Source: a virus (Duplodnaviria; Heunggongvirae; Uroviricota; Caudoviricetes). From it: DNA of 64,000 nucleotides. Below are positions 6,146 to 51,300 of this stretch, one piece after another (within the stretch, counting starts at the first letter, position 1; each line of letters opens with the position of its first letter). The notes beneath the pieces are model-generated. The model was given only the letters and a program-made list of their open reading frames with translations. It ran no database searches and was not told the origin of the DNA. The position numbers and the translations under genes were made by a program. The stretch lies in the IMG/VR virus record IMGVR_UViG_3300033150_000619; one strand, given 5' to 3'.

Positions 6146-6607
6146 TCACAGAAACTCGTCAGATACAAGTATGGGTGCGAACTGCGTAATCATTTGTTCT
6201 GCTTTCTCTCTAAGTTCCTCGAATTCCTTATCCTGTTGTTCTCGAGTTGTTGTATCTATGCCACACTTGATCATCTCTAAGAATTCAACAGGGTGTTCAA
6301 TCAAATAGGCTTGTATTCTATCTCTACGGTCACCCATGCCTGGCTCAAAGTAAATAGACCAAGAGTCAGGTGCCCACCTGGGCTTGTTAGATATCATTAT
6401 TGATGTCTTGAAGCCACTGCTGGGAAAGTACCATCTCTTAAAGTACTTACCGAACTGTTCTAGTATAGCCTCTTTCTCTATGGACTTAGACAGACTCTCC
6501 CTAGTGGAGGTTGCTTCTATAGCATCTACCTCTAACCACTTAGATCTAAGTCTTGTTAGATGCTCCAAGCACCACTCGAAGTCAGAAAGGTCTTCCAAAT
6601 CTACCAC
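6146..6607 (-). CDS. hypothetical protein
   Basis: 153 aa; contains palindrome copy at 6538-6551 encoding TRLRSKW. Confidence 0.4.
   Translation of the reverse strand: MVDLEDLSDFEWCLEHLTRLRSKWLEVDAIEATSTRESLSKSIEKEAILEQFGKYFKRWYFPSSGFKTSIMISNKPRWAPDSWSIYFEPGMGDRRDRIQAYLIEHPVEFLEMIKCGIDTTTREQQDKEFEELREKAEQMITQFAPILVSDEFL
6538..6551. repeat. dispersed palindrome ACTTAGATCTAAGT copy
   Basis: Exact 14-mer; inside 6146..6607 (codes LRSK). Confidence 0.95.
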
Positions 6608-7949
6608 GTTCCTTTGATGTATCTTCTAACCTCACCCATGTACCGAAGGGTGGGTCGCTGTTGTTTGCATTAGCACAGAGAATCCACAGTGTGTGGAAGT
6701 TATATCTGGACTTGTCGAGATAGTCTTGGTCCCCGTATAGGTCTGTCATGTATATCAGCAGCTTGCACTTAGGATAGTTTTCCTTGATGTGTTCGAAAAC
6801 TGGCTTAAACAGTGTACCACCGTATCCTCTACCTCTCATCTTACGAGGGTCGAATCCGTGATCAAAGTTATCCACCGTCTGTACTTCAGCATCACAGGTT
6901 ATTATTGTAAACTTGATCCTACCTTTGTATTGGTTGTCAAGCCCCACTATCTCAGAGATGAATTCCTTGTATTCATGGTCAGAAATAGAACCAGAGGTAT
7001 CTATGCCTACGAATACCTCTATCTCCTCTTTCTTTAGGTTCGGTATATAGAATCCTGCCTGTTGTGATCTCTTATTTGGCTTGAAGTATGTGTAGTCTTT
7101 AGGCAGAGTCGCCTGTACAAACTTCTTCACTATAGATTGCCATGGTACCTGTGACTCTGTCAATCCGTCAATAATCCTCTCCATACCGAGAGGAGCTTTG
7201 CCTTGTTGCTTGGCGTAGTTGTATGCTTCCTTTAGTACCTTATCCCAGTGAGGTTGTTGTTTTTCGTCTCCCTCTCCAAAGCCATATCCGTAGTTCTTTG
7301 AGCCATCGCCTTGCTGTGATGTCTTCTTACCTGTACCGTTGCACTGTTGGCATTTTTGCTGTGTCTTAGGATCTCTGCCGGTACCTTTACAGTTATCGCA
7401 CTGGTCGCTTTCTCCATCTCCCTGTTGGTTGTCAACGTCGATATAGATGTGCACATCTATCTGTCCCTCTCTCATTCCATCGAGCTGAGACTGTGATAGA
7501 GTTTGTAGATCTTCGTATACCTCTTCAGCGTACCAATCTCTGTACTTTGTATCATGAAGCCAGTTATTCGGTATATGGAAGTTGTTCTGCTTTAGAATCT
7601 CGTTGATAACCAAGTCAGCAGAGTAATTCCACATATCTTCATCCCTCGACATCTTACGATCAAGATGTAGAAGGACTGCATGATGTACTTCATGACATAT
7701 CACTGACAGTAATTCCTCTAAGCTCAATGAGTCTACGAAGTCAGGTGAGTAGAACAGTCTACCCCACTTATCCACGCCCATTGTTGGAACTAACTTCATC
7801 AGGAACTCGTTATCTGCCTCAATAAACCTGAGATGCAGAACAAGCGTCCCGAAGAAGGGTCTCTCCTTAAGAAGAATTACCCTAGCCTTCATCAGCTTCT
7901 CTAGAGGTGTTAGTTTCCTTAGTCTAAACTTCTTTATCTGTGACAACAC
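6582..7949 (-). CDS. VWA-domain protein with N-terminal HExxH metallopeptidase-like domain (partner of MoxR-type ATPase)
   Basis: 455 aa; CHEVHHAVLLH zinc-binding motif in N-terminal half; central Gln/Cys-rich linker; C-terminal VGIDTSGSISD MIDAS motif of a VWA domain. Confidence 0.7.
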   Translation of the reverse strand: MLSQIKKFRLRKLTPLEKLMKARVILLKERPFFGTLVLHLRFIEADNEFLMKLVPTMGVDKWGRLFYSPDFVDSLSLEELLSVICHEVHHAVLLHLDRKMSRDEDMWNYSADLVINEILKQNNFHIPNNWLHDTKYRDWYAEEVYEDLQTLSQSQLDGMREGQIDVHIYIDVDNQQGDGESDQCDNCKGTGRDPKTQQKCQQCNGTGKKTSQQGDGSKNYGYGFGEGDEKQQPHWDKVLKEAYNYAKQQGKAPLGMERIIDGLTESQVPWQSIVKKFVQATLPKDYTYFKPNKRSQQAGFYIPNLKKEEIEVFVGIDTSGSISDHEYKEFISEIVGLDNQYKGRIKFTIITCDAEVQTVDNFDHGFDPRKMRGRGYGGTLFKPVFEHIKENYPKCKLLIYMTDLYGDQDYLDKSRYNFHTLWILCANANNSDPPFGTWVRLEDTSKERGRFGRPF

Positions 7950-8233
7950 GTCACCCGCTCATTGTTTTTAGGGTCGGGTCTCCGGTAGTGAGCCGGAATA
8001 TAAAAGAAGTATGCTTACTCAGATAACCACTTTCGTACATTGGCAATTACAGCTATCAACTCATCTATCAGTTCTTCTGGATCATAATACTCGTCATTGA
8101 ACATTAAGTTCACTTTAACTTCTGACTTGTTGAATGGTTCGTTTTCATACTCATATGCTTGAACACTCATCATATGCGTCCGTGCAGCTACGTGTACTCT
8201 TACACCTTTCCGTTCCTCTATTTCCACTATCGT

Positions 8234-8545
8234 TTACTTCCTAAACAGTTCCCAGTAGACTGCATCCTCTGTCGAGTTTGCGTATAATAATAAATACACT
8301 ATAGTACCATGTCTCCAAGTCCGTATAGTATTAACATCAGATATACCTCCCCCAAGTGGATCCTTACCACCATCCTCGTTAATGATGGACTCAAGATTCT
8401 TAACCATCAGTCTTAGGTACGGATAGGCTGTCCATCGATGATTCGATACTACTATTATATGGTAAGTTGCTGTCCCATAGTAGCTCAGGAATCTTCTTAT
8501 TGATTCAACGGACTTATCGGGAATAAAGAAGGGATATTGTTCCAA
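8234..8545 (-). CDS. hypothetical protein
   Basis: 103 aa minus ORF between the AAA ATPase and VWA genes. Confidence 0.35.
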   Translation of the reverse strand: MEQYPFFIPDKSVESIRRFLSYYGTATYHIIVVSNHRWTAYPYLRLMVKNLESIINEDGGKDPLGGGISDVNTIRTWRHGTIVYLLLYANSTEDAVYWELFRK

Positions 8546-8551
8546 GGCAGG

Positions 8552-9979
8552 CTAACTAAACTCCTTCCCCACGAACAGGACCAGGTTATCAGATATCTGA
8601 TGGAATATCTTGTTCCTTGATATCCTATTCTTTAAGTTGGGATCTACTGCCCTGAGCATAGTCAAGAACACTACTGCCATCTCTGACCTAGCTGCCTCAT
8701 CCGTTGTTAATCTGAGACAGAACTGAAGGCAGGGATTTAGTATCTTATTGTCGTATTTGCTGGCTCTGTATCTCTCTGCTAGTGCAGAAAGGAGTGTCCA
8801 TACGATGCTGGTGTTTCTAAAGTCTATCCGCGTTCCCATTGGATCCTTGAGATAGCTTTCTATCGGTGGAAGCTGTTCTCTCATCTGTATGAAGTTGTGG
8901 AATTCGTTAGCTACTTCCAGTCCGACAGCCGTCGAAACCATCAGCCTAACCATGTTCAGATCGTCCGTACCTATCTCATTCAGTATATCAGATACAAACT
9001 CCCATGTCCTTGGAGTTGGTTGTGCGTCGACACCCATTGCATTTGGATCGAACTGATTCAGTGCTACAGCCTTAAAGTTTATGTAGCCAATAACCCATGG
9101 ATGAATACCAGCCGTTCCTGCCCATTCAGTCCATGCCTCTACTGATGGACTTCTTAGTGTCACCCACAGGAACCTAGATTTGAGAGGACTGGGCATAGGC
9201 GTCACACTTGCCATATCCTCCATCCTGTTACCGGCCGCAAAGATACTGTAGCCCTTTGGAACTCTGTACTCACCTAGACATCTTCTGAGTATTAGCTGGT
9301 ATGCAGCCTTTAGATTTAGCTCTGCAGCCAGATTCATTTCATCTAAGAAGATAATGCCACTTCCTGCAACTGGCAGGTCCGACGGTGGTGACCATCGCGT
9401 AACAAGCTCAATTATCTCTGCGTCTGGATACTGCTGTAGGACAGACACAGGAACTTTGAGTATCTTGTGCCTCTTTATCTGTTCTCCATCTTTGTCAGGG
9501 GGAAGTTTAGGAATGGTCTTAACCTCGTACTCCTTATGTTCTCCAGGTGTGTGGAGTTCTGGATTCTTTTCGACCTCGACACTTTCGAACTCGTCCTCGT
9601 CTATTGCAATAGGAACCTCCTCTATCAGACCGTCATTGGTCTTTATGAGTGCATACACCCATGGTATACCTCTCAGATCTGAAGGGTCTAATTGTGCTAG
9701 ACGTAGGTCAATGAGAACGAATTTGGTTGGGTCGTTGATGGCTGATGGATTGTCTTTGTACTCCACGTATTCCAGCCCAGCCTCTTCTGCAAGTTTCATT
9801 GCTACCTGCCTAACGAGGTCGGACTTTCCTATTGCTGGTGGTCCCTTGATAAACAAAGGTCTCTGTATCTGGTGGCAGACCCTTATTATCATAGAGCACT
9901 CTTCGTGGGAGACAGTCCTAGCCATATTCCCTAGGATACTTTGCTCGGAAGTACCACTACTTCTTCTTCTAGAAGACAT
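8552..9979 (-). CDS. AAA_5/MoxR-like ATPase
   Basis: 475 aa; Walker A GPPAIGKSD, Walker B IIFLDEMN followed by AAGN sensor, the typical AAA_5 arrangement; GGAG Shine-Dalgarno 7 nt upstream of ATG. Confidence 0.75.
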   Translation of the reverse strand: MSSRRRSSGTSEQSILGNMARTVSHEECSMIIRVCHQIQRPLFIKGPPAIGKSDLVRQVAMKLAEEAGLEYVEYKDNPSAINDPTKFVLIDLRLAQLDPSDLRGIPWVYALIKTNDGLIEEVPIAIDEDEFESVEVEKNPELHTPGEHKEYEVKTIPKLPPDKDGEQIKRHKILKVPVSVLQQYPDAEIIELVTRWSPPSDLPVAGSGIIFLDEMNLAAELNLKAAYQLILRRCLGEYRVPKGYSIFAAGNRMEDMASVTPMPSPLKSRFLWVTLRSPSVEAWTEWAGTAGIHPWVIGYINFKAVALNQFDPNAMGVDAQPTPRTWEFVSDILNEIGTDDLNMVRLMVSTAVGLEVANEFHNFIQMREQLPPIESYLKDPMGTRIDFRNTSIVWTLLSALAERYRASKYDNKILNPCLQFCLRLTTDEAARSEMAVVFLTMLRAVDPNLKNRISRNKIFHQISDNLVLFVGKEFS

Positions 9980-13907: not shown

Positions 13908-15671
13908 TCACTTACTGACCTGCGCCTTGTACATATCCTTTATCTTGATTATGGTATCTATGTCCTGTACTTTCTTATCCCATCTAATCCTAACCAACCT
14001 AGGACTTCTAAGTGAGAAGCCACTGCTGTACTGGTTGCTCTGGATTATTTCATAGGTAATAACCTCTACAACCAACTCCGGCTTAACACGGACTCCTTCT
14101 TTATCTTTAGAAAGAACAGTCAGAGACCTAGCTATTACTTCTAGGTCTGACTCAGATAGATTAGAGAAGTCACCTATCTCATAGAGAGTCTTCTTGGAGG
14201 GATGCTTCACTGCCAACCTAAAACTGGAGTAAACACCGGACTTCCTGCCGTGACCGTACTTAGCTTTGACGATGACTGCATCTATTGTATCTGTATTCTT
14301 CTTGAGTTTCATCCATGAGTTACTTCTCTTAGAGGGATAATACTTACCGTCTAGGTCCTTTACCATTATTCCTTCTTTACCCTTCTCAACCATAGAGTCG
14401 TAGTAAGCCATAAGTTCCTGTGGAGAGTTGAAGTAGTCTCCTTCTACAACTATCTCAGCCGGGAATATTGTATTGAGCTTACGGAACCTAGATCTAAAGT
14501 CCCAGTTAAGCATAGGGTGACCATCACAATACAATAGGTCGAATACTCTGATCTCTAAGTTCTCAGCACCATTGGTCAGGGCACTATGTGTGTCTCCTAT
14601 TGGCAGCTTCTCCCCATCAGAACCTCGAGCCATGAACTCGAACTCTGCTATGAAGGAAGTGGCACCAGTTACCTGCTTGAAGACGTTAGTTACATAACCT
14701 GCATCTGTAAAGGGAATACCATTCTGTAGGTGTCCGGTCCTCGAGAAGAATGCTATATTGTCTCCTGACTTATGGACTTGGATTCTGGCACCGTCATACT
14801 TCACATCTGCACGGCATGGGTACCTAACTCTTCCCGAATCAAATAGTTGAGCCAACATACAATTGATGAATGTACCTGGGACTATCTTCACATTATTGAG
14901 GGCATTATCCCCCTGCTGGGCAATGAGTAAGCCCTCAATCGTACCACGGAGCAAACACACATTGCTGAGTGTGTCCGCATTTACCCCAGCATATTCTCCA
15001 ACAGCAGAGATTATAGTCTCTGTGTTCAGACCCAGGTACACTCTCTTTCTCAACAACCAGGCGATATACTTAGCTTCTTCTTTCGTAGCTACTTCGAACA
15101 GTGAAACGATAGCACTGATCTTCTTGTGTGTCCCACTGGTCTCAGCTATCAGGTTGATTGAGTGATATACTTCATCTGCCAGCAGAGTTTCTTTGTCTCT
15201 GTCTTTAGCTAGGAAATAGGCTATGTCACCAATATCCCCATAGTCCTCTATGAGACTGTTCATCTCATTCCTACTCTTGTTAGATAGGATACGTAGGGCA
15301 TCTATTATTCTCTCATATCCTACGCCTATGGGCTTGTTCGACAGCTCACCCATTAGGAATTGAATCTTCTCTTTGTACGGTAAGGGTACTTCCCTAAGAA
15401 ATCTAATAGATTCTGTCCTCTTCCCCTTCAGGCTCTTTCTATCAGTGATAGCCTTATAGTGATTGATTATCTCACTGAACAGATACTTAGATCTAAGTGC
15501 TCTGCCTGAGCCGTATATCATGACCCAATGAAGGGGTAGGTTATACTCCCTAGAGATTTCCATCTCTGAGTATCCATTCTTCTTGAGTTCTTCAATAGCT
15601 CCTCTTAGGCTACCCTTCATCTTTAAGTAGTCTTCCAGAGAGGGCTTCTCTACAATACTCATAAGCGTCAA
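13908..15671 (-). CDS. lig: ATP-dependent DNA ligase
   Basis: 587 aa; ligase motif I ADVKYDGARIQV, motif IV EGIMVK, motif V WMKLKK; the size and an N-terminal domain resemble archaeal/eukaryotic-type Lig. Confidence 0.85.
   Translation of the reverse strand: MTLMSIVEKPSLEDYLKMKGSLRGAIEELKKNGYSEMEISREYNLPLHWVMIYGSGRALRSKYLFSEIINHYKAITDRKSLKGKRTESIRFLREVPLPYKEKIQFLMGELSNKPIGVGYERIIDALRILSNKSRNEMNSLIEDYGDIGDIAYFLAKDRDKETLLADEVYHSINLIAETSGTHKKISAIVSLFEVATKEEAKYIAWLLRKRVYLGLNTETIISAVGEYAGVNADTLSNVCLLRGTIEGLLIAQQGDNALNNVKIVPGTFINCMLAQLFDSGRVRYPCRADVKYDGARIQVHKSGDNIAFFSRTGHLQNGIPFTDAGYVTNVFKQVTGATSFIAEFEFMARGSDGEKLPIGDTHSALTNGAENLEIRVFDLLYCDGHPMLNWDFRSRFRKLNTIFPAEIVVEGDYFNSPQELMAYYDSMVEKGKEGIMVKDLDGKYYPSKRSNSWMKLKKNTDTIDAVIVKAKYGHGRKSGVYSSFRLAVKHPSKKTLYEIGDFSNLSESDLEVIARSLTVLSKDKEGVRVKPELVVEVITYEIIQSNQYSSGFSLRSPRLVRIRWDKKVQDIDTIIKIKDMYKAQVSK
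15485..15498. repeat. dispersed palindrome ACTTAGATCTAAGT copy
   Basis: Exact 14-mer; inside the DNA ligase gene (codes ALRSKY). Confidence 0.95.
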
Positions 15672-19307: not shown

Positions 19308-19646
19308 CTAATAAATGTTAAAGCTGTAGACTGTTTGCCATGAGAACTTATCTAAGATTGACTGAGGTGGATTCCATATAACATTGGGACTTAGATCTAA
19401 GTAATCCCAATGAGCTATTGTTTTCCTCCCCTCAATATACCTAATCTTTTCCTTTAGAGCGCGGATATCATAGGAATTTAGGCTAGCAATGCCAGCGATG
19501 TATAGTGATTCTATCTGCCATACTCGACAGAGTGTTAGATACTTGGGATGAAGGGGCAGACAGCCATCAGCCTTACTTATTTCCATTACCCTCAGGGTCA
19601 ACTTATCCATATATGGAAAGTGAACCTTACTCGAAGAATGACTCAT
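19308..19646 (-). CDS. hypothetical protein
   Basis: 112 aa; contains palindrome copy 19389-19402 encoding DYLDLSPN. Confidence 0.35.
   Translation of the reverse strand: MSHSSSKVHFPYMDKLTLRVMEISKADGCLPLHPKYLTLCRVWQIESLYIAGIASLNSYDIRALKEKIRYIEGRKTIAHWDYLDLSPNVIWNPPQSILDKFSWQTVYSFNIY
19389..19402. repeat. dispersed palindrome ACTTAGATCTAAGT copy
   Basis: Exact 14-mer; inside 19308..19646 (codes LDLS). Confidence 0.95.
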
Positions 19647-19854
19647 CTACAGCAATGTCCTGCGATCCACATACTATACAGACAGCCTCGAAGTCTCTGC
19701 CAGTATCTGCCCACTCTATGACCTGGGGAACCCTACCATCTCTATAACTTATTTCTAATCTAGACTCGTTAAAGAATACATCGAAATCCTTGGTATTACC
19801 ACATTCTAGACAGATAAGTGTCGGCTTATCCGCGTTCATGTTGTACTTGGTCAT
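19627..19854 (-). CDS. zinc-ribbon protein
   Basis: 75 aa; CLECGN ... CIVCGS. Confidence 0.4.
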   Translation of the reverse strand: MTKYNMNADKPTLICLECGNTKDFDVFFNESRLEISYRDGRVPQVIEWADTGRDFEAVCIVCGSQDIAVDESFFE

Positions 19855-22100: not shown

Positions 22101-22354
22101 ATAACTGCTATTCTACCATCTACTTCCCAATATGTAGGTTCTAGGTGTCTGACCAGTGATGGTACAGATGCTATAAACCCATCCTTGTTATAAATGGCTG
22201 TCATAATACAGGGCTTATGATTCCTAACAGACCTTATTATCTTAATAGCCCTAACTACCCTAAAGGGTGGGGTGGGAATAGATGCACTATATCCCTTGTA
22301 TAGCTTAATTTCCAATAATACCCTACCTAGAGGTTCCCATCTATAGTTATTCAT
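22091..22354 (-). CDS. hypothetical protein
   Basis: 87 aa. Confidence 0.35.
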   Translation of the reverse strand: MNNYRWEPLGRVLLEIKLYKGYSASIPTPPFRVVRAIKIIRSVRNHKPCIMTAIYNKDGFIASVPSLVRHLEPTYWEVDGRIAVMPR

Positions 22355-22628
22355 TTAATCGTAGCATATCATCCTCACTAGGACTAACAGGAGGAGTAAC
22401 AAAATACCTATCTAAAGGAAGGGGGAGTTTCCTTATCTGACTCTTGGGCAGCCATACTTCTTGTTCTTCTGTAACTCTAACCAGAATAGCCTTCTGTGTC
22501 TCTGCTACAAGATGACCCGATAAGTCCTCTGCTATGTTGTTCTTATCTGCTAACCAAGCAGGAACGCTAACACGTATAGGATCTAATTCAGATGTATCCT
22601 TTCTACGATGTTTCTTCTTACCAGACAT
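22347..22628 (-). CDS. hypothetical protein
   Basis: 93 aa, basic N-terminus. Confidence 0.35.
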   Translation of the reverse strand: MSGKKKHRRKDTSELDPIRVSVPAWLADKNNIAEDLSGHLVAETQKAILVRVTEEQEVWLPKSQIRKLPLPLDRYFVTPPVSPSEDDMLRLNE

Positions 22629-22711: not shown

Positions 22712-23464
22712 TCACTCTATGAAATCCCGCCGTTTTAACTTCCATATCACTCTCTCACCCTTCCTGTTGTATATCATAGGATTGCTCTTGCAGACCACTC
22801 CTTCCATAAGATAATCTGGATTCCCTCCATCCTCCTCAGCTACGATAGATGTAGGACTGGACTTTACGTATTCTATAATCTGGTCTATGGTCATCCTACC
22901 TATGAAAGGTGGAGTATCAACATCTAAATCCCTGGCTACAGCCTGTATTGCCTTACGAGACAACCACCACCCTGCAGCTGATTGACTCCCATCCTGTGAA
23001 TATGGGGCTGGTCCATTGAGGTCGAGTACAAATATATCGAATATCCGAGCAGATACACCTTTACGGTAGTTATGTCCACCTTGTATCTTCTCACCATATC
23101 CTTCCATATAGAGGATTACTCCCTGTGCCCCTCTAGCCTTCCTAACAGCATGAAGGACTTTATCTAAAGTATATGTCTCAGTAAGATACTCTTGAAGATG
23201 TTTAGGTATCTCCGATGTATCAGTCCTTCCCATAAACCACAGCTGTGGATCCATGTGATCCATGTCAGATATGGGAGGATCGTGAAGATCATGGAGAGGA
23301 CCTATCATAGCTCTGATATTAGTCCCGTCTATCTTCTCATATACGTCGTAGGCTCTGACATACGGAAAGGTAGCATCAGTATAGTCTCCCTCTATAATCC
23401 TGCCAGGCTTCTTCCCTTTCATCTGTCTCTTAAAGAGAGTCTGTATCTTAGGGTACTTTACCAT
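22712..23464 (-). CDS. RNA ligase-like covalent nucleotidyltransferase
   Basis: 250 aa; motif I YEKIDGTNIR, motif IV EGVVCK, motif V IWKLKRRDF in the ligase order and spacing. Confidence 0.6.
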   Translation of the reverse strand: MVKYPKIQTLFKRQMKGKKPGRIIEGDYTDATFPYVRAYDVYEKIDGTNIRAMIGPLHDLHDPPISDMDHMDPQLWFMGRTDTSEIPKHLQEYLTETYTLDKVLHAVRKARGAQGVILYMEGYGEKIQGGHNYRKGVSARIFDIFVLDLNGPAPYSQDGSQSAAGWWLSRKAIQAVARDLDVDTPPFIGRMTIDQIIEYVKSSPTSIVAEEDGGNPDYLMEGVVCKSNPMIYNRKGERVIWKLKRRDFIE

Positions 23465-23862: not shown

Positions 23863-24420
23863 TCATAATGTATCGGGTGAGTAGGCTATGTAAATCTCGT
23901 GATAGAACTTATAGTAATCTCCTTTCTTCTCACAGGAGTGAGATATCTTATAGCAGCCTCGTACTTCTCCTCCATACTCGTCACTGCCAGAGAAGGATGC
24001 TATTATCTTCCCTTTAGAATCTAGGATAGTAACAAACCCATTAAAGTCATAGACGACAGCTATATTATCAATTGATTTACTGTACAGAAATACTCCTATA
24101 GTTCCACTAGCGGGGTTGATTGAAACACCTATATTCCTTGGGTCATATCCAGGTGGAATAGACCATACTACCTTACTTTCACCTACATCAGGGAAGCGTG
24201 GATGTTTAGGACACTGCCATTTAGGGAATGGTTCTCTCTTTCTACTCTCTCCCTGGATATTAGTCCACCTGAATATTTGACCAGCTTCACAGACCCACTC
24301 TTCAACAAAGAGAGTTCTTTCTGTAAGTGTCTTTTCATCCTGTTCGGTAGTCTTAGTTAATGTCCAGTTATTATGAGGACAGGTCTCACAGATACCAGTT
24401 CTATACTTAAAGTTACTCAA
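23863..24420 (-). CDS. hypothetical protein
   Basis: 185 aa, Cys/Trp-rich N-terminus. Confidence 0.4.
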   Translation of the reverse strand: MSNFKYRTGICETCPHNNWTLTKTTEQDEKTLTERTLFVEEWVCEAGQIFRWTNIQGESRKREPFPKWQCPKHPRFPDVGESKVVWSIPPGYDPRNIGVSINPASGTIGVFLYSKSIDNIAVVYDFNGFVTILDSKGKIIASFSGSDEYGGEVRGCYKISHSCEKKGDYYKFYHEIYIAYSPDTL

Positions 24421-24439: not shown

Positions 24440-24769
24440 CTATGCATTGTTTTCATCCCAGTCTCTTAGCTCCAGATACTTGACTTTACCGCTGTTAAGA
24501 GGTATAGCAAATAAGACCCGCTTCTTAACTGAATGAGCTAACCTACCAGAACGTACTAAATCTAGCCCTCCTAAGACTGGTCCACCTGTAATGATTTCAA
24601 CTAAATAATCTGAGTGGATAGAACTATCTCTATACAGAGCTAGGTGGAAGCCATACTGAGTAGCTGGAGTAACATGGAATCCACGCCTAATTAGATCTTG
24701 TCTAACACGGATGATAGACTCATCTTCACTCATCGCTAAGTCTCCACCACTAAGCTTCTTCATCTTCAT
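24440..24769 (-). CDS. hypothetical protein (possibly a degenerate PD-(D/E)xK-like fold)
   Basis: 109 aa; GFHV...SDYLVEIITGG loosely resembles Hjc-type nuclease core but lacks the Lys. Confidence 0.3.
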   Translation of the reverse strand: MKMKKLSGGDLAMSEDESIIRVRQDLIRRGFHVTPATQYGFHLALYRDSSIHSDYLVEIITGGPVLGGLDLVRSGRLAHSVKKRVLFAIPLNSGKVKYLELRDWDENNA

Positions 24770-25779
24770 AGATTATTGATGGCACCTACAAACAGTACGG
24801 TGTTGCTTAGTCTATCTCGGATGAAGAATACAAATGGGTGGTCTACCCTGACTTCAACCGGCGGTGGAGGAACGTACACACACGCCAGCCGAGTCATTAC
24901 TACACTAGTAGCTGCAGCAGCTTCAGTACCTTCTTCATCTACCTCTATGAAGGTCTTGTGTACAACACCACTTATCTTAAGGCGTTCCTCAGTACTGATT
25001 CCCGTGAAGTCAGCATAGTCACTAAAAGCCAGGGGCATCCCCATATCCCCCAGTACCTTATTGAGATTATACTCAACCTCTAGACGGAATTTGGGTAGGC
25101 GAAGTATAACAGGTACGCTTCGCCCTCCAAAGGCATTAGGTGGCTTAAGTAGAGTTCCCTGGGAAACACGACCTGATCGAGACTTAGGTAGCATGATAAC
25201 CATAGAGAGTCTACTAGAATTGTAGGGCAACTCTACTATCTGCAAATCCTCGGTTTCAGCATAAGACAAATCCTTCTGTAGATGCATTATATCAACCTTA
25301 TTGGTTGTCTCAGTACCATAGAAACTATCCTTGACAGTCAAGGTCTTAGAGAACTGGTGAAGCCATTTACCCTTAAAGTAGACAGCATTAGTTATGACCA
25401 TCAGTTCATCTTCTTCTAATCTCTTTATCAGATCCTTAATCTTCCCCTTTGTTTGGATGGAGACCCAGTTGTTGATAATATCTTCAGGACAAGGTAGTCC
25501 TGATATATCCATCGTTGTAGACCTGAATGTAGTCTTAACATACTCAGCCCAATTGGGGTTGATTGGGCACCTGGTCCACACAGCATTAGCTACATTGAGA
25601 GTATCTACTTCAATATGGGGCGGATTATCTATCCCCAGTACTGAAGACATCTCGTCCAGTGTCCGCCCTCTAGCACCGTGGCGTACCATACACAGTGCCA
25701 TCTCTATACTATATGGAGATACTAAGAAATTATCTCCAGTCTCAGAGAAGATGCTGTATAACCTATCTGTAAATGTCAT
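24766..25779 (-). CDS. serpin (serine protease inhibitor)
   Basis: 337 aa; N-terminal NFLVSPYSIEMALCMV...GARGRTLDEM, hinge/RCL EVDEEGTEAAAATSVVMTRLA (predicted P1 Leu, P2 Arg), C-terminal DHPFVFFIRD...VLFVG signature. Confidence 0.8.
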   Translation of the reverse strand: MTFTDRLYSIFSETGDNFLVSPYSIEMALCMVRHGARGRTLDEMSSVLGIDNPPHIEVDTLNVANAVWTRCPINPNWAEYVKTTFRSTTMDISGLPCPEDIINNWVSIQTKGKIKDLIKRLEEDELMVITNAVYFKGKWLHQFSKTLTVKDSFYGTETTNKVDIMHLQKDLSYAETEDLQIVELPYNSSRLSMVIMLPKSRSGRVSQGTLLKPPNAFGGRSVPVILRLPKFRLEVEYNLNKVLGDMGMPLAFSDYADFTGISTEERLKISGVVHKTFIEVDEEGTEAAAATSVVMTRLACVYVPPPPVEVRVDHPFVFFIRDRLSNTVLFVGAINNL

Positions 25780-25782
25780 CTC

Positions 25783-26055
25783 TTACTCCTTGATATTAAA
25801 TATCCCAGCAATAACAACCAGGTATATTACTAGACCTACGGTTCCAATACCAAAGGTTCCCGTATCTCCTACTCTCACTCCTATTTGCCACGAGTGTGTA
25901 GTAGCCCAGTATGGGACGAACCATTGAGTAAAGTAGATAGAACTAACTACCTTACCTGCTTTGACTATAAGACTGTAAAGCCTCTTCAGGTCTGGAAACT
26001 TGATGTTGGGTATCCTAATAACATTCCTTCTATTTCTCCCCTCTGATAGACTCAT
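25783..26055 (-). CDS. small membrane protein
   Basis: 90 aa; C-terminal TM helix GLVIYLVVIAGIF. Confidence 0.35.
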   Translation of the reverse strand: MSLSEGRNRRNVIRIPNIKFPDLKRLYSLIVKAGKVVSSIYFTQWFVPYWATTHSWQIGVRVGDTGTFGIGTVGLVIYLVVIAGIFNIKE

Positions 26056-27260
26056 AGTCTGCCGTACTTCCTTAGATACATTGTAAATGCGTTGTATGCA
26101 AGACTTGGTTTAACCCTGACTGCATCTATCCCCGCCAGAGTTCTCATAACCTCAGCCTTATTATCAATAGAGACTTCTATCTTATCCTCTAGCTTCTCCA
26201 ACTCTGACCATATCATAAGAGTGTCTATCGGGAACATTCTATTGATTACTCTCTCAATACGGGCCATAGAAACCTCTACGAGATTAGCAGGGAACTCTGA
26301 GTACAGTTCCTCTATAACCATACTATGAAGCTCTCCTACAGAGTCTATCATAGCTATGTTCTCTAGAACCTTTCTTACTGCCTTATCTATCTCTTTTGTG
26401 GGTAGGGCTCCACCAGCTCTTAATTGAGCAAGGCGTCTGACGGCATCACATTTGATCTTACCCATGAACTGGTCTTCATACAGCTCCGACCAGGTCTTAG
26501 CAATAAACCCTTCATACTTTCCCATAAGTGCTTCTAAGTCATGTTGTAGGTACCCTATGGCGTCGTCTGTAATAGTTCCACGCCAGTGAAGTGTCGGAAC
26601 GGGGATGCCTACATCACTAAATAGCTCTACCTTCTTCTCATAGGGCATGAAGGAATGTGTCCGCATATCTATGATGTCAATACCAGATATCTCAATGGGA
26701 ATGGTTGGGTAATCAATGTACTCACAGGCATTTAAATAGCCATACAGTTCAACGACTGGACAATACTCATCCCTGGTCAATTGATGTAAGGCATCCCTGC
26801 GACCTGTGTTACCCACTAGCTCATTCCATTGTCTACCCATATATCCACCTAGATCATACCTGGGCACAGCTCTGGTTTTTCCCATCATAGTGCCATCAGG
26901 CAGCGGGTAGAGAATGATATTTGTACCGTCTAACTTCTCCTCAACCACAGCTTCTTTCTTATAGACGGTACTGGATTCTACATAGTTTATCTTAGGATAA
27001 CCCCTGACAATTCTAGGGTTATCATTATCCCACTTATAGAATACTGTACCATACAGCTGTCCCTGTTCAGATGAAATATAGGGATTATAGATGTACCCCC
27101 TAAATGAATGACCATGGTACTGATAATTGAAGTAAGTGAATCTGCTCTCAGGCTTCTGTACGTATCTACATATTACTGAAAGCATCTCCTCCTTGCCTTT
27201 AACTCCCTCTAGAGCTTGTTGGCATATTCGGAGCTTCTCACTTATTATCTCCACTTTCAT
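26052..27260 (-). CDS. RNA ligase-like nucleotidyltransferase (Rnl2-like motif set)
   Basis: 402 aa; motif I EEKLDGTNI, motif IV EGFIAK, motif V GKIKCD. Confidence 0.6.
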   Translation of the reverse strand: MKVEIISEKLRICQQALEGVKGKEEMLSVICRYVQKPESRFTYFNYQYHGHSFRGYIYNPYISSEQGQLYGTVFYKWDNDNPRIVRGYPKINYVESSTVYKKEAVVEEKLDGTNIILYPLPDGTMMGKTRAVPRYDLGGYMGRQWNELVGNTGRRDALHQLTRDEYCPVVELYGYLNACEYIDYPTIPIEISGIDIIDMRTHSFMPYEKKVELFSDVGIPVPTLHWRGTITDDAIGYLQHDLEALMGKYEGFIAKTWSELYEDQFMGKIKCDAVRRLAQLRAGGALPTKEIDKAVRKVLENIAMIDSVGELHSMVIEELYSEFPANLVEVSMARIERVINRMFPIDTLMIWSELEKLEDKIEVSIDNKAEVMRTLAGIDAVRVKPSLAYNAFTMYLRKYGRL

Positions 27261-47233: not shown

Positions 47234-48133
47234 TTAGTTAATCTGGCCCATATGGGATAGGGTATTGGGTATCGCTACCCTTTCGCTTAATCTGCTTTGT
47301 TCTTTATACCACCGAATTAGTTTAGTATCGTCATATTCCCAATAACAACTTAGTATAGCTTCAAATAGCTGTGTAGCTGTATCAATGTCTAATTCCTTAA
47401 ACTTATCTATGATTGAATAGAAGCATTTACTGATATTACCAAATTGCATCTCAGCTGGTGAGTTGTATGGTATATCCCTACTTTTACCGTATACTATTGG
47501 TGTTATTCCTAATTTCTCTAACCCCTCAATAACTGCATTAACCTTTCTATCCATTCTTAGATATTGTATATTCTCACCGTTATCTATTGCTTTTTGTATG
47601 AGTTGGAGTATTCTAACTGTTGTTTCTGTCGGTTCATGGTATACGTGATAATACCTTTTCTGTGTCTTAAGGTTGACTAACATAAGTATCTTAATTATTG
47701 CTTTATCTTCATACCGTAGATATGTGCGTGCGTGCTTTCTTCTCTTTATTGAACCGTCATTTAATCCATATCCATCCATGGCGTGAGTAACCAAATCGGT
47801 AGATAGATTTGAATTATATGTTTGTTTAGATGTTTCATACCTTACGTTAAAGACTCTTTTAGGGATTATGTTTAAACTCTTTTTGAGTCTAAACAGACGG
47901 GTTTTATTAGTGTTTAATATGTGTGCTGAAACATCTAAGCCTAAACCTAATTCGTTATGTATTGTTAGTCTTTCTTCTATTTCCTTTTCCTTTTCCGCTG
48001 ACATGGCTATACCCCTAACCGTTTCACCATTATATAAATGGCTAAGGTTGTTTTGGGAGGTGTTGGGTGAAAGTGGTTGCCCCACTATATTCACCCTTTC
48101 TGTTTCTTTTTGAGGTTTCATCGTTCTCCTCAA
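47234..48133 (-). CDS. hypothetical protein (island boundary)
   Basis: 299 aa; GAGGAG Shine-Dalgarno 4 nt upstream of the ATG; no recombinase or transposase motif recognised. Confidence 0.45.
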   Translation of the reverse strand: MRRTMKPQKETERVNIVGQPLSPNTSQNNLSHLYNGETVRGIAMSAEKEKEIEERLTIHNELGLGLDVSAHILNTNKTRLFRLKKSLNIIPKRVFNVRYETSKQTYNSNLSTDLVTHAMDGYGLNDGSIKRRKHARTYLRYEDKAIIKILMLVNLKTQKRYYHVYHEPTETTVRILQLIQKAIDNGENIQYLRMDRKVNAVIEGLEKLGITPIVYGKSRDIPYNSPAEMQFGNISKCFYSIIDKFKELDIDTATQLFEAILSCYWEYDDTKLIRWYKEQSRLSERVAIPNTLSHMGQIN

Positions 48134-48357: not shown

Positions 48358-51300
48358 CTATGCTACATTGATGTAAGTCCTATCATTAAACTCCTGGAGC
48401 TTGCCCTTGTTGTATTTGTTAGTTGACCTATAATATCCTACGACTCTGGAGAATACCTCAGTTGCACCACCACAACTGCTGCAGTCATAGTGTACACCAC
48501 GTTGGTAGCTACCACATTTGGGGCATATACTAAACGTAGCAGAGAAGTCAAAGTATGGTACCTTGGTGTTCTTAGCTATACTCTCCGTTAGCTTAGCTAG
48601 ACCTGCTGGGTGCGGGTCAGCTTCTCCTACATATATTCTATGGACTGTACCACCGGTAAAGGTAGTGAGATATGGCTCTTCAAAGAGCAGTCTCTCCTCC
48701 ATTCCCATTTCATAGGAAGGTGGAGTTATCATAGAAGTATAGTATGGGGAATCTGTCTCTCCCATCGTATATATATCTGGGTACTTCTTCCTGTCTTTGA
48801 TGGCTAAGTCAGTAGCAGAACCTTCAGCCGGTGTCATCTCAAAGTTCCACAGCAGACCCGTTTCCTGCTGTGTTGTCTTAGTCCAGTTCCTGATGTATTG
48901 AAGGACTCTAATTGCTAAGTCTCCAGCTTCTATAATATTACTTCCTGTATGGTTGATGCACATCTCATTAAGACCGACTATACCAATAGTACGGAAGAAT
49001 CTACTCAGGTCTACTTCGTAGATTCTTGCTATAGGCATAAGTCCACTATTAATAGACTTATTGACTATATCGCCCTTAATCTCTAGTGCTTCCCTAGCCA
49101 TAGAAAGAGTCATGTCTAGGTTATCAAATAACTCACTCTCTTCACGACTGATATACCCCAGACGACCTAAATTCAGTGTTATTACTCCTATTGAACCTGT
49201 GTTGCCTGATAAAGCCCACCTACCTCCTGCAGGTGGTAGCTGACTTAGATCTAAGTTTAATCTACAGCAGTTATGCGTTATTACACCATTAGCTAGTTGA
49301 TACAGATGCGGCTCTGGTAATTCAAGAGTATATACAGTGTCAGCGTGATACTTCTCCTTAATGTCTATGACCGATACCCACTGATAACCACCTTGATCAG
49401 TGTACTTACTGCTATTATCCTTACAGATACGTATTACCTGTGATGTCTTTAGTGTTCTAGTATATTTTATACCAAGGCTTCCTAATACATCACAGATATC
49501 ATCGGCTAACTCTGGATTGTTAATGTGTAGTTCATTGTCTCTATTGTAGCCGTCCCCCTGCCATAGACCATCTATCAGTCCTTGTCTGAAGTCTACAGAC
49601 CCTCTAAAGACAGCAGCTCTTAGTTTCTTCTCGGTGGATAACCTTCCACTCACGAAGCTTCTGACTAATCCTCTAACAGATTTATCATACGTTAATAGGG
49701 AAACAGCAGAGGATCTAGGATCAGGTACCTTAATCGACCTCGCTCCTAACGTGCGTTGCAGGAACTTAGTTATAAAATCTATATGTTCTGCTTCATCAGA
49801 ATGGAAGGTGAACTGTATCGCTTTACCAGTGTCTAGTCCTTCTGCAATGTATAGTCCAATTAGCCTACCTAGATCATAAGTTCCATATTCTGTATCATAT
49901 GGAGTAGATGCCATTGGGAGTCTCACTCCCGGTCGTAAGTCAACGGCTCTAATCACTCCATCATCTGTTAGGAATAGATGTGATTTCGTAACCTTTAGTA
50001 TGTTACCGTTGTCTAGATAAACATACAATAGATTGCTATCGTACTGATAGGCATCTACGTAGCAGGGAACAAACTCACCATTGACTAGTGCTTCTATGTT
50101 GTGTTTAGTGCTCGTTCTATAGAGATTCCTTAAGGTATCTCTAGAAACTCTACCATCAACGCGATAGATGACTTTGGTTTCTCCCTGGAAGCACATTGCT
50201 TGTACGCTGTCTTCATCAATACCAGAACCTACATAGTTCATGTAGTACCAGTTACCGAACTTAGCATCTGTACGCATTATCTCATAGAATAGATCTGAAC
50301 TAAAATCTGTAGACTTGATCAGATTTAGAGTTGGTATAGGGAACGTAAACACAGATCCTATTCCGTCCCCTTCATACAGAACATGATTAAAGGCTTTGAT
50401 TATAGTCTCTGCTTCATCTGCAAAGTCTTCATATGTATTACCATTGTCTAATACAGGTAACTCCCTGAGTTGTTTAGGACACTTAGAGTCAAATATTAAA
50501 TTAGTAAAGGGTGTATTACCAGTGAAGGCTATCTTACCATTTCTAAGAACTATCATGCTATTGTTGTCTGTATTAATACCGTACACTCTTCCATCGTAAG
50601 GAATAGTCTCAACCTCTGCATAAGTTCTATCTGTGAAGTCCCTAACTATAGATATATCATAAACTCCGTTGTCTCTTAATCTATTATTGGTTAAGTACCC
50701 AGCAATAACACATAATTCTTGGAATCTCAATAAGTCGGATTCGGAATTAGTATATAACCTAAATCTGGACTTAGATCCATCTCCCAACCTATATTCAGAT
50801 AAGAACAATCTGGCCTGGTTTCTTGACAACAAAGATGTCCACTTAGGTATGGATTTACTATATCCACTCTTATAGAAAGTAAATCTCTTGACTGGTGCAT
50901 TAGCACACCCGCCGGAATATTCAGACTCTGTCCATTCTATACCATTATCAGACAGAGTGGATCTTATGCACTCTATATTCTCTGGATTGAGTATAGATTG
51001 TCCTATTACTATTCTATCCTCTTTGGTTTTGTTAGGTGTTATATTACCCTCAGAGACTATCCATGCCCACAACCTTATTTCTTCATCCGTAATTGGATAA
51101 TCTTCCCTGTCAATAAGTCCCATAGCAGGAACTAAGACTCTAGATTTCCTATCGAATATGTCTTTAGCCATCTCAAATCTAGGAGTATCATCATAATAGG
51201 GAAATGTAATAACTCTGTGTTCTGGAACGACTAATTGATCAGTTCTCTCATTGTGTATGTGATACATTAATCCATTATAATTGTATCTAACTACCTTGTG

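What the first reader, a model, noticed from the sequence alone, without database searches (positions are those of the whole stretch)
24766..25779. Virus-encoded serpin
The 337-aa protein has the serpin N-terminal (NFLVSPYSIEMALCMV), the hinge EEGTEAAAAT and the C-terminal DHPFVFFIRD signatures. That predicts an inhibitory serpin with a reactive-centre loop ...SVVMTRLA (P1 Leu, P2 Arg). It is shorter than typical 380-420-aa serpins, so N-terminal helices may be missing. Serpins are rare in prokaryotic viruses. It could protect virion or host proteins from host proteases, or modulate a protease-based defence. It sits between two RNA-ligase genes.
Basis: partly seen in the sequence, partly recalled or inferred. 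Interest (0 to 1): 0.7.

Follow-up and report, generated by a model that had tools for sequence, protein, structure and literature searches.

The report
Minimal serpin in a prokaryotic virus
A large tailed virus of an uncultured, probably archaeal, microbe carries a real but unusually small serpin-type protease inhibitor that appears built to work inside the infected cell; serpins are almost unknown in viruses of bacteria and archaea.

Summary
A 337-aa ORF at 24766-25779, on the minus strand, matches the Pfam serpin family end to end (E 7e-88). It keeps the inhibitory hinge EEGTEAAAAT and 42 of 49 hallmark serpin residues. The predicted structure is a confident serpin fold (pLDDT 92). Leu298 aligns with the alpha-1-antitrypsin P1 residue, with Arg297 at P2 and Ala299 at P1'.

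The protein is short for three reasons: it has no signal peptide, helix A is short, and helix D is cleanly deleted. The helix D gap falls in the same place as in poxvirus CrmA.

The element is viral. A 99%-identical 136-kb IMG/VR contig encodes an HK97-type major head protein. The host is unknown, but several hints point to an anaerobic archaeon.

Eight further helix-D-less relatives (about 45-48% identical where measured) form a small clade. Where their contigs were examined, these look viral. No cellular genome searched holds a serpin more than about 40% identical.

Serpins were found in only 2 of 50,697 GenBank phage records, and no PHROG family matches this one.

The most likely function is a cytoplasmic suicide inhibitor of a host serine protease. 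Its biological role, counter-defence or protection of viral proteins, is inferred and not shown.

The parts
24766..25779 (-). Serpin coding sequence, 337 aa, no signal peptide
   Evidence: ORF list. Pfam PF00079 E=7.4e-88. PDB serpins down to E=5.6e-52. AF2 model pLDDT 92.4.
24880..24936 (-). Hinge and reactive-centre loop, residues E282 (P17) to C300 (P2'). P1 is Leu298 (codon 24886-24888), P2 is Arg297, P1' is Ala299.
   Evidence: Alignment to verified alpha-1-antitrypsin places L298 on M358 and G284 on G344. Codons were read.
25621..25632 (-). Site of the helix D deletion (residues ~50-53, GI-DNPP). Alpha-1-antitrypsin residues 84-104 have no counterpart here.
   Evidence: Gap runs computed on alignment A3; CrmA has the same 84-104 gap. 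All compact relatives share it.
25786..25791 (-). AAGGAG Shine-Dalgarno-like site 6 nt upstream of the serpin ATG
   Evidence: Sequence read; upstream survey.
24440..24769 (-). Downstream gene whose start overlaps the serpin stop (ATGA). 109-aa archaeal/eukaryal-type tRNA-splicing endonuclease catalytic domain with the Tyr/His/Lys positions aligned.
   Evidence: Pfam PF01974 E=3.5e-16. Best PDB match is the tRNA-splicing endonuclease 3p1z_B, E=1.2e-8. Overlap seen.
25783..26055 (-). Upstream 90-aa ORF with a hydrophobic C-terminal stretch, ending 4 nt before the serpin start. No family match.
   Evidence: Called as a gene on related contigs.
26052..27260 (-). RNA-ligase-family gene (402 aa), upstream end of the co-oriented gene string
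   Evidence: Pfam PF09414 E=4.4e-6, 27.4 bits, just above the cut-off of 27.
22712..23464 (-). RNA-ligase-family gene (250 aa), downstream end of the gene string
   Evidence: Pfam PF09414 E=4e-11; phrog_548 RNA ligase E=1.3e-12.
23863..24420 (-). 185-aa ORF of unknown function between the EndA-like gene and the second RNA ligase
   Evidence: No Pfam, PHROG or PADLOC match. Conserved on near-identical contigs.

Best explanation
The ORF is a genuine serpin that looks competent to inhibit, encoded by a large tailed dsDNA virus of an uncultured prokaryote, probably an anaerobic archaeon. It lacks a signal peptide, so it is made and acts in the cytoplasm of the infected cell. It is co-oriented and translationally coupled with an RNA-cleaving and RNA-ligating gene set. 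Like other inhibitory serpins, it should act as a suicide substrate. A target protease cleaves the exposed loop at Leu298-Ala299. The loop, anchored by the Ala-rich hinge G284-T291, then snaps into beta-sheet A and traps the protease as a covalent acyl-enzyme. In the compact clade P1 is aliphatic (Leu, Val or Ala), P4 is mostly Met and P1' is small. This suggests a chymotrypsin-, elastase- or subtilisin-like serine protease of the host as target. The likeliest purpose is to neutralise a host protease that would otherwise harm the infection, either a protease-dependent defence or cell-suicide pathway or a degradative protease. Shown here: serpin identity, hinge and loop anatomy, helix D deletion, viral context, rarity. 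Inferred: inhibition itself, the target class, and the biological role.
For: Family and fold:
- Pfam serpin E=7.4e-88 over the whole model, and 199 PDB serpins matched.
- The AF2 model has pLDDT 92.4 and pTM 0.84. It matches solved serpins at TM 0.78-0.83.

Inhibitory anatomy:
- The hinge EEGTEAAAAT is invariant or nearly so across relatives.
- 42 of 49 hallmark residues are kept, including those aligned to alpha-1-antitrypsin S53, S56, N186, H334, W194, K290 and E342.
- L298 aligns with alpha-1-antitrypsin M358, the P1 residue.
- The model places residues 284-297 as a strand in sheet A, so the loop sequence is compatible with insertion.
- CrmA, a known functional inhibitor (my knowledge), has the same helix D gap in the alignment, so that loss need not inactivate a serpin.

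Loop pattern in the compact clade: across the nine sequences P1 is Leu in 6, Val in 2 and Ala in 1, with Met at P4 in 6 and Arg at P3 in 6.

Cytoplasmic location: there is no N-terminal hydrophobic segment, whereas most cellular relatives carry leader or lipoprotein-like extensions.

Viral context:
- A 99%-identical IMG/VR contig has an HK97-type major head protein matching 10 PHROG major-head-protein families plus further virion-structural families, best E=8e-14.
- The window has dense same-strand ORFs, mostly without family matches, and 2 tRNAs.
- The window matches PHROG families for NrdD, DNA ligase, ATPase and RNA ligase.

No protease in the window: no serine-protease family was found in any window ORF of 60 aa or more, so the target is probably not encoded nearby.

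Context in other serpin-bearing viral contigs: an RNA ligase lies two genes from the serpin in L002. An AcrVA2-like gene lies about 4 kb from the serpin in L010 and L013.
Against: - No biochemical data exist. Inhibition, the target and the timing of expression are all inferred.
- AF2 gave the loop-inserted (latent or cleaved-like) state, not the metastable native state. It therefore says nothing about whether the native protein is metastable.
- The helix G/H region (residues ~200-220) is poorly predicted and rich in Pro and Gly.
- The host is not identified, so no candidate target protease can be named.
- The serpin and its neighbours match no PADLOC defence-system model, and nothing ties the serpin to a specific defence system.
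- Gene neighbours are not conserved between the window and the two other compact-clade contigs examined. Only the serpin is shared, plus a weak DUF2201 match.
Confidence: 0.7

Rival explanations
1. Cross-class inhibitor of a cysteine protease of the caspase, metacaspase or CHAT type, using Arg297 rather than Leu298 as P1, in the manner of poxvirus CrmA.
For: In the alignment, CrmA's P1 Asp303 falls on the window's Arg297, because the CrmA loop is one residue shorter. From my own knowledge: prokaryotic metacaspases and orthocaspases cleave after Arg or Lys, and caspase-like proteases drive several prokaryotic cell-suicide defences. The shared helix D loss with CrmA is striking.
Against: Within the compact clade the Arg is not fixed in position. 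It sits at P2 in the window and at P3 in six relatives, whereas the aliphatic residue at canonical P1 is conserved in register. The resemblance to CrmA is only 29% identity and shows no specific relationship.
Confidence: 0.12
2. The serpin controls the virus's own protease, for example a capsid maturation protease, and prevents premature proteolysis.
For: Tailed viruses commonly encode a serine-type prohead protease (my knowledge). Only part of the genome was inspected: about 85 kb of a contig of at least 136 kb.
Against: No protease family was found in any window ORF. None was found in the large ORFs scanned in the extra ~20 kb next to the head gene. The serpin sits among nucleic-acid enzymes about 50 kb from the head gene, not in the structural module. 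No such regulation is known in tailed phages (my knowledge).
Confidence: 0.08
3. The serpin is released at lysis, or packaged, and protects virions from extracellular host or community proteases.
For: Many cellular prokaryotic serpins are secreted, and secreted subtilases are common in anaerobic communities (my knowledge). The P4 Met / P1 Leu pattern would suit subtilisin-like enzymes.
Against: There is no signal peptide. Stoichiometric one-shot inhibition is a poor strategy when diluted outside the cell. The gene is coupled to intracellular RNA enzymes.
Confidence: 0.07
4. A non-inhibitory serpin scaffold with a binding, chaperone or other role, like ovalbumin or maspin.
For: The architecture is reduced: no helix D, and an uncertain helix G/H region. 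No activity data exist.
Against: Non-inhibitory serpins typically have bulky, charged or Pro residues in the hinge (my knowledge). Here P14 is Thr and P12-P9 is Ala-Ala-Ala-Ala, and these positions are invariant or nearly so in relatives. The shutter and breach residues are kept.
Confidence: 0.08
5. Not viral: a cellular serpin on a misassembled or misclassified contig.
For: The window itself holds no capsid or terminase gene.
Against: The same gene order recurs at 99-99.6% nucleotide identity on independent assemblies from JGI, ENA and Logan. The 136-kb contig carries a major head protein. The best serpin in 185,579 species genomes is only 39-40% identical.
Confidence: 0.03

Closest known systems
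Poxvirus CrmA / SPI-2 (cowpox virus, 341 aa; PDB 1F0C, 1C8O, 1M93)
   Same: Both are virus-encoded, intracellular and lack a signal peptide. Both are about 340 aa, among the smallest serpins. Helix A is shortened, and helix D is deleted at the same alignment position (alpha-1-antitrypsin 84-104). Both have the hinge TEAAAAT.
   Different: They share only 29% identity, with no specific relationship. CrmA has P1 Asp and targets caspases and granzyme B in animal cells (my knowledge). The window protein has Leu at canonical P1, Gly instead of Tyr at P15, and six extra residues on the primed side. It belongs to a tailed virus of a prokaryote. The parallel is best read as convergent reduction.
Cellular prokaryotic serpins (e.g. 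8gxv 'proteinase inhibitor I4 serpin', miropin 5ncs/5nct/5ncu, tengpin 2pee/2vh4)
   Same: These are the closest sequences and structures. 8gxv_A scores E=5.6e-52. Cleaved miropin matches the model at TM 0.78-0.82. The hinge is the same and the primed-side loop is similarly long and Pro-rich.
   Different: The cellular proteins are 370-430 aa with helix D, and most have signal or lipoprotein leaders. The window protein lacks all of these, and no genome serpin found exceeds about 40% identity to it.
Second group of leaderless serpins on large virus-like contigs (P0009, P0048, P0080, P0095; 360-377 aa)
   Same: They have no signal peptide and sit on virus-like contigs. These include an IMG/VR contig with an RNA ligase two genes away, and a 262-kb contig with DUF2201_N, AcrVA2-like, ribonucleotide reductase and CTP synthase genes.
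   Different: They are 36-40% identical to the window protein, retain helix D, and have a different loop (GMMRCTSVRMP).
Serpins of eukaryotic giant viruses, baculoviruses and iridoviruses (BFVD hits)
   Same: Same fold. 35 BFVD structures match at E<=1e-3.
   Different: Every named hit is from a virus of eukaryotes; none is from a phage or archaeal virus.

Membership tests
Serpin superfamily (Pfam PF00079 / MEROPS I4) | Full-length sequence match to the family profile above the curated threshold | tested here: met
   295.7 bits against a cut-off of 27, E=7.4e-88, model positions 5-369 of 370.
Serpin superfamily (Pfam PF00079 / MEROPS I4) | Serpin fold: three beta-sheets with a central sheet A, plus helices | tested here: met
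   Prediction only. AF2 pLDDT 92.4. Foldseek TM 0.75-0.83 to solved serpins, E down to 2.6e-31. Helix D is absent and helices G/H are uncertain.
Serpin superfamily (Pfam PF00079 / MEROPS I4) | Conserved core residues (shutter, breach, gate) | tested here: met
   42 of 49 positions are identical to alpha-1-antitrypsin, including S53, S56, N186, H334, W194, K290 and E342. The list of 49 positions was recalled from Irving et al. 2000, not checked against the paper.
Inhibitory serpins | Hinge P15-P9 made of small uncharged residues (G-T-E-A-A-A-A) that can insert as strand 4A | tested here: met
   G284-T-E-A-A-A-A290. Invariant or nearly so in relatives.
Inhibitory serpins | Canonical loop length, with P1 sixteen residues after P17 Glu | tested here: met
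   E282 to L298; L298 aligns with alpha-1-antitrypsin M358.
Inhibitory serpins | Metastable native state, stressed-to-relaxed transition, and an SDS-stable acyl-enzyme complex with a protease | not testable with these tools
   AF2 returned the loop-inserted state, which does not bear on metastability.
Poxvirus CrmA/SPI-2-type caspase inhibitors | P1 Asp in the motif LVAD, and a loop one residue shorter | tested here: not met
   The window has MTRL at P4-P1 with canonical length. The helix D deletion is shared, but identity is only 29%.
Secreted or lipoprotein prokaryotic serpins | N-terminal signal peptide or lipobox | tested here: not met
   The protein starts MTFTDRLYSIF..., directly in helix A. 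Cellular relatives carry 20-90-aa hydrophobic leaders. This was judged by eye; no predictor was run.
Virus of prokaryotes (tailed, HK97-type capsid) | Major capsid protein on the same molecule as the serpin | tested here: met
   L099:541-1650 on the 99%-identical 136-kb contig matches 10 PHROG major-head-protein families plus further virion-structural families, best E=8e-14. The window itself does not include it.
Phage or archaeal-virus anti-defence proteins | Demonstrated inhibition of a host defence system | not testable with these tools
   No PADLOC match for the serpin or its neighbours. Only loose contextual hints exist.

The most novel reading that the evidence does not exclude
This is the founding example of a virus-specific lineage of minimal, helix-D-less cytoplasmic serpins that tailed viruses of archaea (or bacteria) use as anti-defence weapons. 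Each molecule would covalently trap a host protease that triggers or executes abortive infection, such as a gasdermin-activating, subtilase-, trypsin- or caspase-like effector. That would make it a prokaryotic counterpart of poxvirus CrmA that arose independently.
Probability: 0.2. Interest if true: 0.85.

Novelty: new member of a known kind. Interest (0 to 1): 0.6.

Why it matters
Virus-encoded serpins are known from poxviruses and other viruses of eukaryotes, where the well-studied poxvirus examples disarm host cell-death and immune proteases. No natural serpin of a bacterial or archaeal virus turned up in the searchable literature, the PHROG families or the named BFVD structures.

Protease-driven suicide and defence pathways are now recognised in prokaryotes. 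A cytoplasmic, virus-borne covalent protease trap would therefore be both an obvious candidate counter-measure and a ready-made bait for finding its target protease.

The independent loss of helix D here and in CrmA also bears on how small a working serpin can be.

Tried and rejected
- **Exact-sequence look-ups failed.** Look-ups of window proteins to reach the source contig found nothing. The window is 99-99.6% identical, not identical, to the recorded contigs.
- **Host identification did not succeed.**
  - The DNA-ligase homologue search gave only hits of 30% identity or less to mixed archaea and actinomycetes.
  - The EndA-like protein has no relatives by word search.
  - Capsid tblastn gave only short weak matches to Methanobacterium virus PhiF1 and to Streptomyces and Thermobifida phages.
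  - The KaiC-like ATPase had no phage match.
  - Sample accessions are not in the paper library.
- **The metagenome scan added little.** With the compact-clade profile it was swamped by ordinary serpins through the hinge motif and added only one short compact-clade contig, L100.
- **No conserved neighbours in the compact clade.** The window shares only the serpin with L004 and L007, plus a weak DUF2201 match in L007.
- **No defence-system match.** PADLOC found none for the serpin or its neighbours.
- **No RNA families.** Rfam found only the two tRNAs.
- **Literature searches found no natural example.** Searches combining serpin with phage, archaeal-virus, anti-phage and related terms returned only engineered T4 phage delivering serpin B1a, or irrelevant mentions.
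- **Misassembly rejected.** See the last rival explanation.

Full report
**1. The observation**

The interval 24766-25779 holds a 337-aa ORF on the minus strand; the plus-strand reading is broken by stops. The protein matches Pfam Serpin (PF00079) with E=7.4e-88 across positions 5-369 of the 370-position model. It matches 199 distinct PDB serpin sequences, the best being 8gxv_A at E=5.6e-52.

The ATG is preceded by AAGGAG. The stop codon overlaps the ATG of the next gene (ATGA). The stop codon of the preceding 90-aa ORF lies between the ribosome-binding site and the serpin start. The serpin is therefore an internal gene of a tightly packed, co-oriented gene string.

**2. Anatomy of the protein**

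Alpha-1-antitrypsin was identical to 2qug_A over 394 residues. CrmA was identical to 1f0c_A over residues 1-305 except for one residue, which I corrected; its C-terminal 37 residues remain unchecked. I then aligned both with the window protein and its relatives.

Residue mapping gave these results:
- 42 of 49 hallmark serpin positions are identical to alpha-1-antitrypsin. The list of positions was recalled from Irving et al. 2000. The conserved positions include shutter residues S53, S56, N186 and H334, breach W194, K290 and E342.
- G284-T-E-A-A-A-A-T291 aligns with P15-P8.
- Leu298 aligns with Met358 (P1), Arg297 with P2 and Ala299 with P1'.
- The primed side is six residues longer than in alpha-1-antitrypsin (VYVPPP), as in other prokaryotic serpins.
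- Alpha-1-antitrypsin residues 84-104 (helix D) have no counterpart, and CrmA shows exactly the same gap.
- Residues 1-30 of mature alpha-1-antitrypsin are also absent, so helix A starts at the residue equivalent to F33.
- There is no hydrophobic leader, whereas most cellular relatives have one.

The main loss is internal.

**3. Predicted structure**

AlphaFold2 with a 27-sequence alignment gave pLDDT 92.4 and pTM 0.84. The order of secondary-structure elements is that of a serpin without helix D. Residues ~200-220, the helix G/H region, are of low confidence and mostly coil.

Residues 284-297 are modelled as a long strand next to strand 5A. The best PDB matches are accordingly cleaved or latent serpins: cleaved miropin, protein C inhibitor, antichymotrypsin and latent conserpin, with TM 0.77-0.83. 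This shows that the loop sequence is compatible with insertion. It does not show that the native protein is metastable.

**4. Relatives**

Among 5.8 billion proteins, near-identical copies (99%) occur on contigs of 136 kb and 176 kb from JGI and on shorter contigs from ENA, NCBI and Logan.

Five relatives at 45-48% identity (P0002-P0006, 335-363 aa) share the missing leader, the short helix A and the helix D deletion. The exhaustive representative search added three more (P0249, P0257, P0271). All other hits are 41% identical or less and retain helix D. Of 52,511 serpin-like representative clusters, only about eight single-domain proteins stand out at the top of the profile search.

Across the nine compact sequences, canonical P1 is Leu in 6, Val in 2 and Ala in 1. 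P4 is Met in 6, P3 is Arg in 6 and P1' is small. One of the four differences between the window protein and its 99% variant P0001 lies in the loop (Thr296Ala, P3).

In one genome per species for 185,579 species, the best serpin was 39-40% identical. The top hits were a Bacteroidales MAG, several Methanomicrobiales, Woesearchaeota and Desulfobacterales, and all full-length matches were at least 19 residues longer than the aligned part of the query. That scan depends on shared peptide patterns, so it could miss divergent members.

**5. Is it viral, and whose virus?**

Evidence that the element is viral:
- The window has 92 of 103 chosen ORFs on one strand, most without any family match, plus tRNA-Thr and tRNA-Gln.
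- It encodes an anaerobic ribonucleotide reductase interrupted by inteins, two ATP-dependent DNA ligases (one fused to ChaB), a MoxR-like ATPase with a DUF2201/VWA partner, a KaiC/RecA-like ATPase and a radical-SAM protein. Several of these match PHROG families.
- It has no nucleotide match to 50,697 GenBank phage records.
- It is 99% identical to IMG/VR contig UViG_3300033149_001352 (136,445 bp).
- Walking along that contig found large tail-like ORFs, a glycosyltransferase/methyltransferase cluster with inteins, and an HK97-type major head protein matching 10 PHROG major-head-protein families plus further virion-structural families, best E=8e-14.

The element is therefore a tailed dsDNA virus with a genome of at least 136 kb.

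The host is not established. Several hints point to an archaeon:
- The gene after the serpin is a 109-aa tRNA-splicing endonuclease catalytic domain. All its PDB matches are archaeal or eukaryal enzymes, and the Tyr/His/Lys positions align.
- Five ATG genes lacking a ribosome-binding site carry a TATA-like box starting exactly 31-33 nt upstream of the ATG and nowhere else in the 70 nt upstream. This is the geometry of archaeal leaderless transcripts.
- Sigma-70-type promoters and intrinsic terminators are not enriched over shuffled sequence.
- An HTH_45 domain protein is present.
- The capsid has a weak match to a Methanothermobacter virus.
- The anaerobic reductase and the radical-SAM protein suggest an anoxic habitat.

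None of these hints is decisive.

**6. How rare are serpins in prokaryotic viruses?**

- tblastn found serpins in only 2 of 50,697 phage records, both unannotated human-gut 'Bacteriophage sp.' scaffolds at about 30% identity.
- No PHROG family matched the serpin.
- All named BFVD structures with the fold are from viruses of eukaryotes.
- Literature searches found only engineered T4 phage carrying mammalian serpin B1a.

Metagenomic contigs do show a second, leader-less but helix-D-containing group (P0009, P0048, P0080, P0095) on virus-like contigs. One is an IMG/VR contig with a helicase, a phosphatase and an RNA ligase two genes from the serpin. Two others are a 262-kb and a 38-kb contig that share the gene order DUF2201_N, histone-deacetylase-like, AcrVA2-like, then (about 4 kb on) the serpin, followed on the other strand by PDDEXK, a glutamine amidotransferase and CTP synthase.

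Serpins are thus rare but recurrent cargo of large uncultured prokaryotic viruses.

**7. Mechanism and role**

Given the canonical hinge, the loop length and the conserved core, the best reading is a working suicide-substrate inhibitor that acts in the cytoplasm. The conserved aliphatic P1 and hydrophobic P4 suggest a chymotrypsin-, elastase- or subtilisin-like target.

No protease family was detected in any window ORF. None was found in the large ORFs scanned in the further ~20 kb examined. A host target is therefore more likely than a viral one.

The gene string around the serpin runs as follows: RNA ligase, small hydrophobic-tailed ORF, serpin, splicing-type endonuclease, two unknown ORFs, RNA ligase. 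In phages, RNA-ligase genes are classically linked to repair of host-inflicted tRNA damage (my knowledge). Together with the AcrVA2-like neighbour in the other serpin group, this makes a counter-defence role attractive. It is still an inference. The neighbours are not conserved among the compact-clade contigs, and PADLOC gave nothing.

A cross-class variant, with Arg297 as P1 against a caspase- or metacaspase-like enzyme as in CrmA, cannot be excluded. It is disfavoured because the position of the Arg drifts within the clade while the aliphatic P1 does not.

**8. Verdict**

The finding is real and correctly identified. It is a new member of the serpin family, and its anatomy predicts the standard serpin mechanism. 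Three things make it interesting:
- its carrier, a large tailed virus of an uncultured and possibly archaeal host;
- its membership of a small clade that lacks helix D and has no close match in the cellular genomes searched;
- its convergence on the CrmA-like minimal architecture.

The functional role is unproven.

Noticed in passing
window 445, 6539, 13121, 15486, 19390, 28475, 32701, 37129, 49244, 51634, 53346, 57119: The palindromic 12-mer CTTAGATCTAAG occurs 10 times exactly, plus 2 times with one mismatch, in 64 kb against 0.43 expected. In 9 of the 10 exact copies it is followed by T. The flanks are not conserved and several copies lie inside coding regions. It might be a protein-binding, nicking or modification site.
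   Followed up: partly
window 44913, 45287, 46966 (minus strand); also upstream of ORFs 19627-19854 and 22347-22628: TATA-like boxes (RAAGTGTTAAATA and similar) start exactly 31-33 nt upstream of ATG codons that lack a ribosome-binding site. This resembles archaeal BRE/TATA promoters driving leaderless mRNAs. Many of the other genes use GGAG or GGTGA sites.
   Followed up: partly
window 24440-24769 (-): An orphan 109-aa protein consists only of the catalytic domain of an archaeal/eukaryal tRNA-splicing endonuclease, with the Tyr/His/Lys positions aligned to 3p1z_B. It is translationally coupled to the serpin and flanked at a distance by two RNA-ligase-family genes. It has no relatives by word search apart from identical copies.
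   Followed up: partly
window 48358-52947 (-): A 1529-aa anaerobic ribonucleotide reductase (NrdD) is interrupted by intein sequences: Intein_splicing, LAGLIDADG, and a second Hint-like hit near residue 150. A separate LAGLIDADG-like ORF lies at 47234-48133. The 44-48 kb stretch has lower GC (0.36-0.38) and little or reversed GC skew.
   Followed up: no
window 53146-55242 (+) and 13908-15671 (-): There are two ATP-dependent DNA ligases in one viral genome. One is a full three-domain enzyme (587 aa). The other is a 698-aa ChaB-ligase fusion on the opposite strand.
   Followed up: no
L099:3769-11452 and L009:23-1474 (IMG/VR contig, beyond the window): A cluster of glycosyltransferase and methyltransferase genes lies next to the head gene, and at least two of them contain intein or Hint-LAGLIDADG insertions.
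   Followed up: no
L010:3827-11134, L013:2229-11125: A second, helix-D-containing, leader-less serpin group sits in a conserved block of large virus-like contigs (38 kb and 262 kb). The block also holds DUF2201_N, a histone-deacetylase-like gene and an AcrVA2-like gene. Its loop reads GMMRCTSVRMP.
   Followed up: partly
window 6582-9979 (-): A MoxR-like ATPase (phrog_1297) is paired with a DUF2201 putative metallopeptidase/VWA protein (phrog_1314). The DUF2201 family recurs on other serpin-bearing viral contigs: L007, L010 and L013.
   Followed up: no
window 24766-25779 (model m63285c5953c0): AlphaFold2 modelled the serpin in the loop-inserted (latent or cleaved-like) state rather than the native state. 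Foldseek therefore ranks cleaved and latent PDB serpins first.
   Followed up: yes
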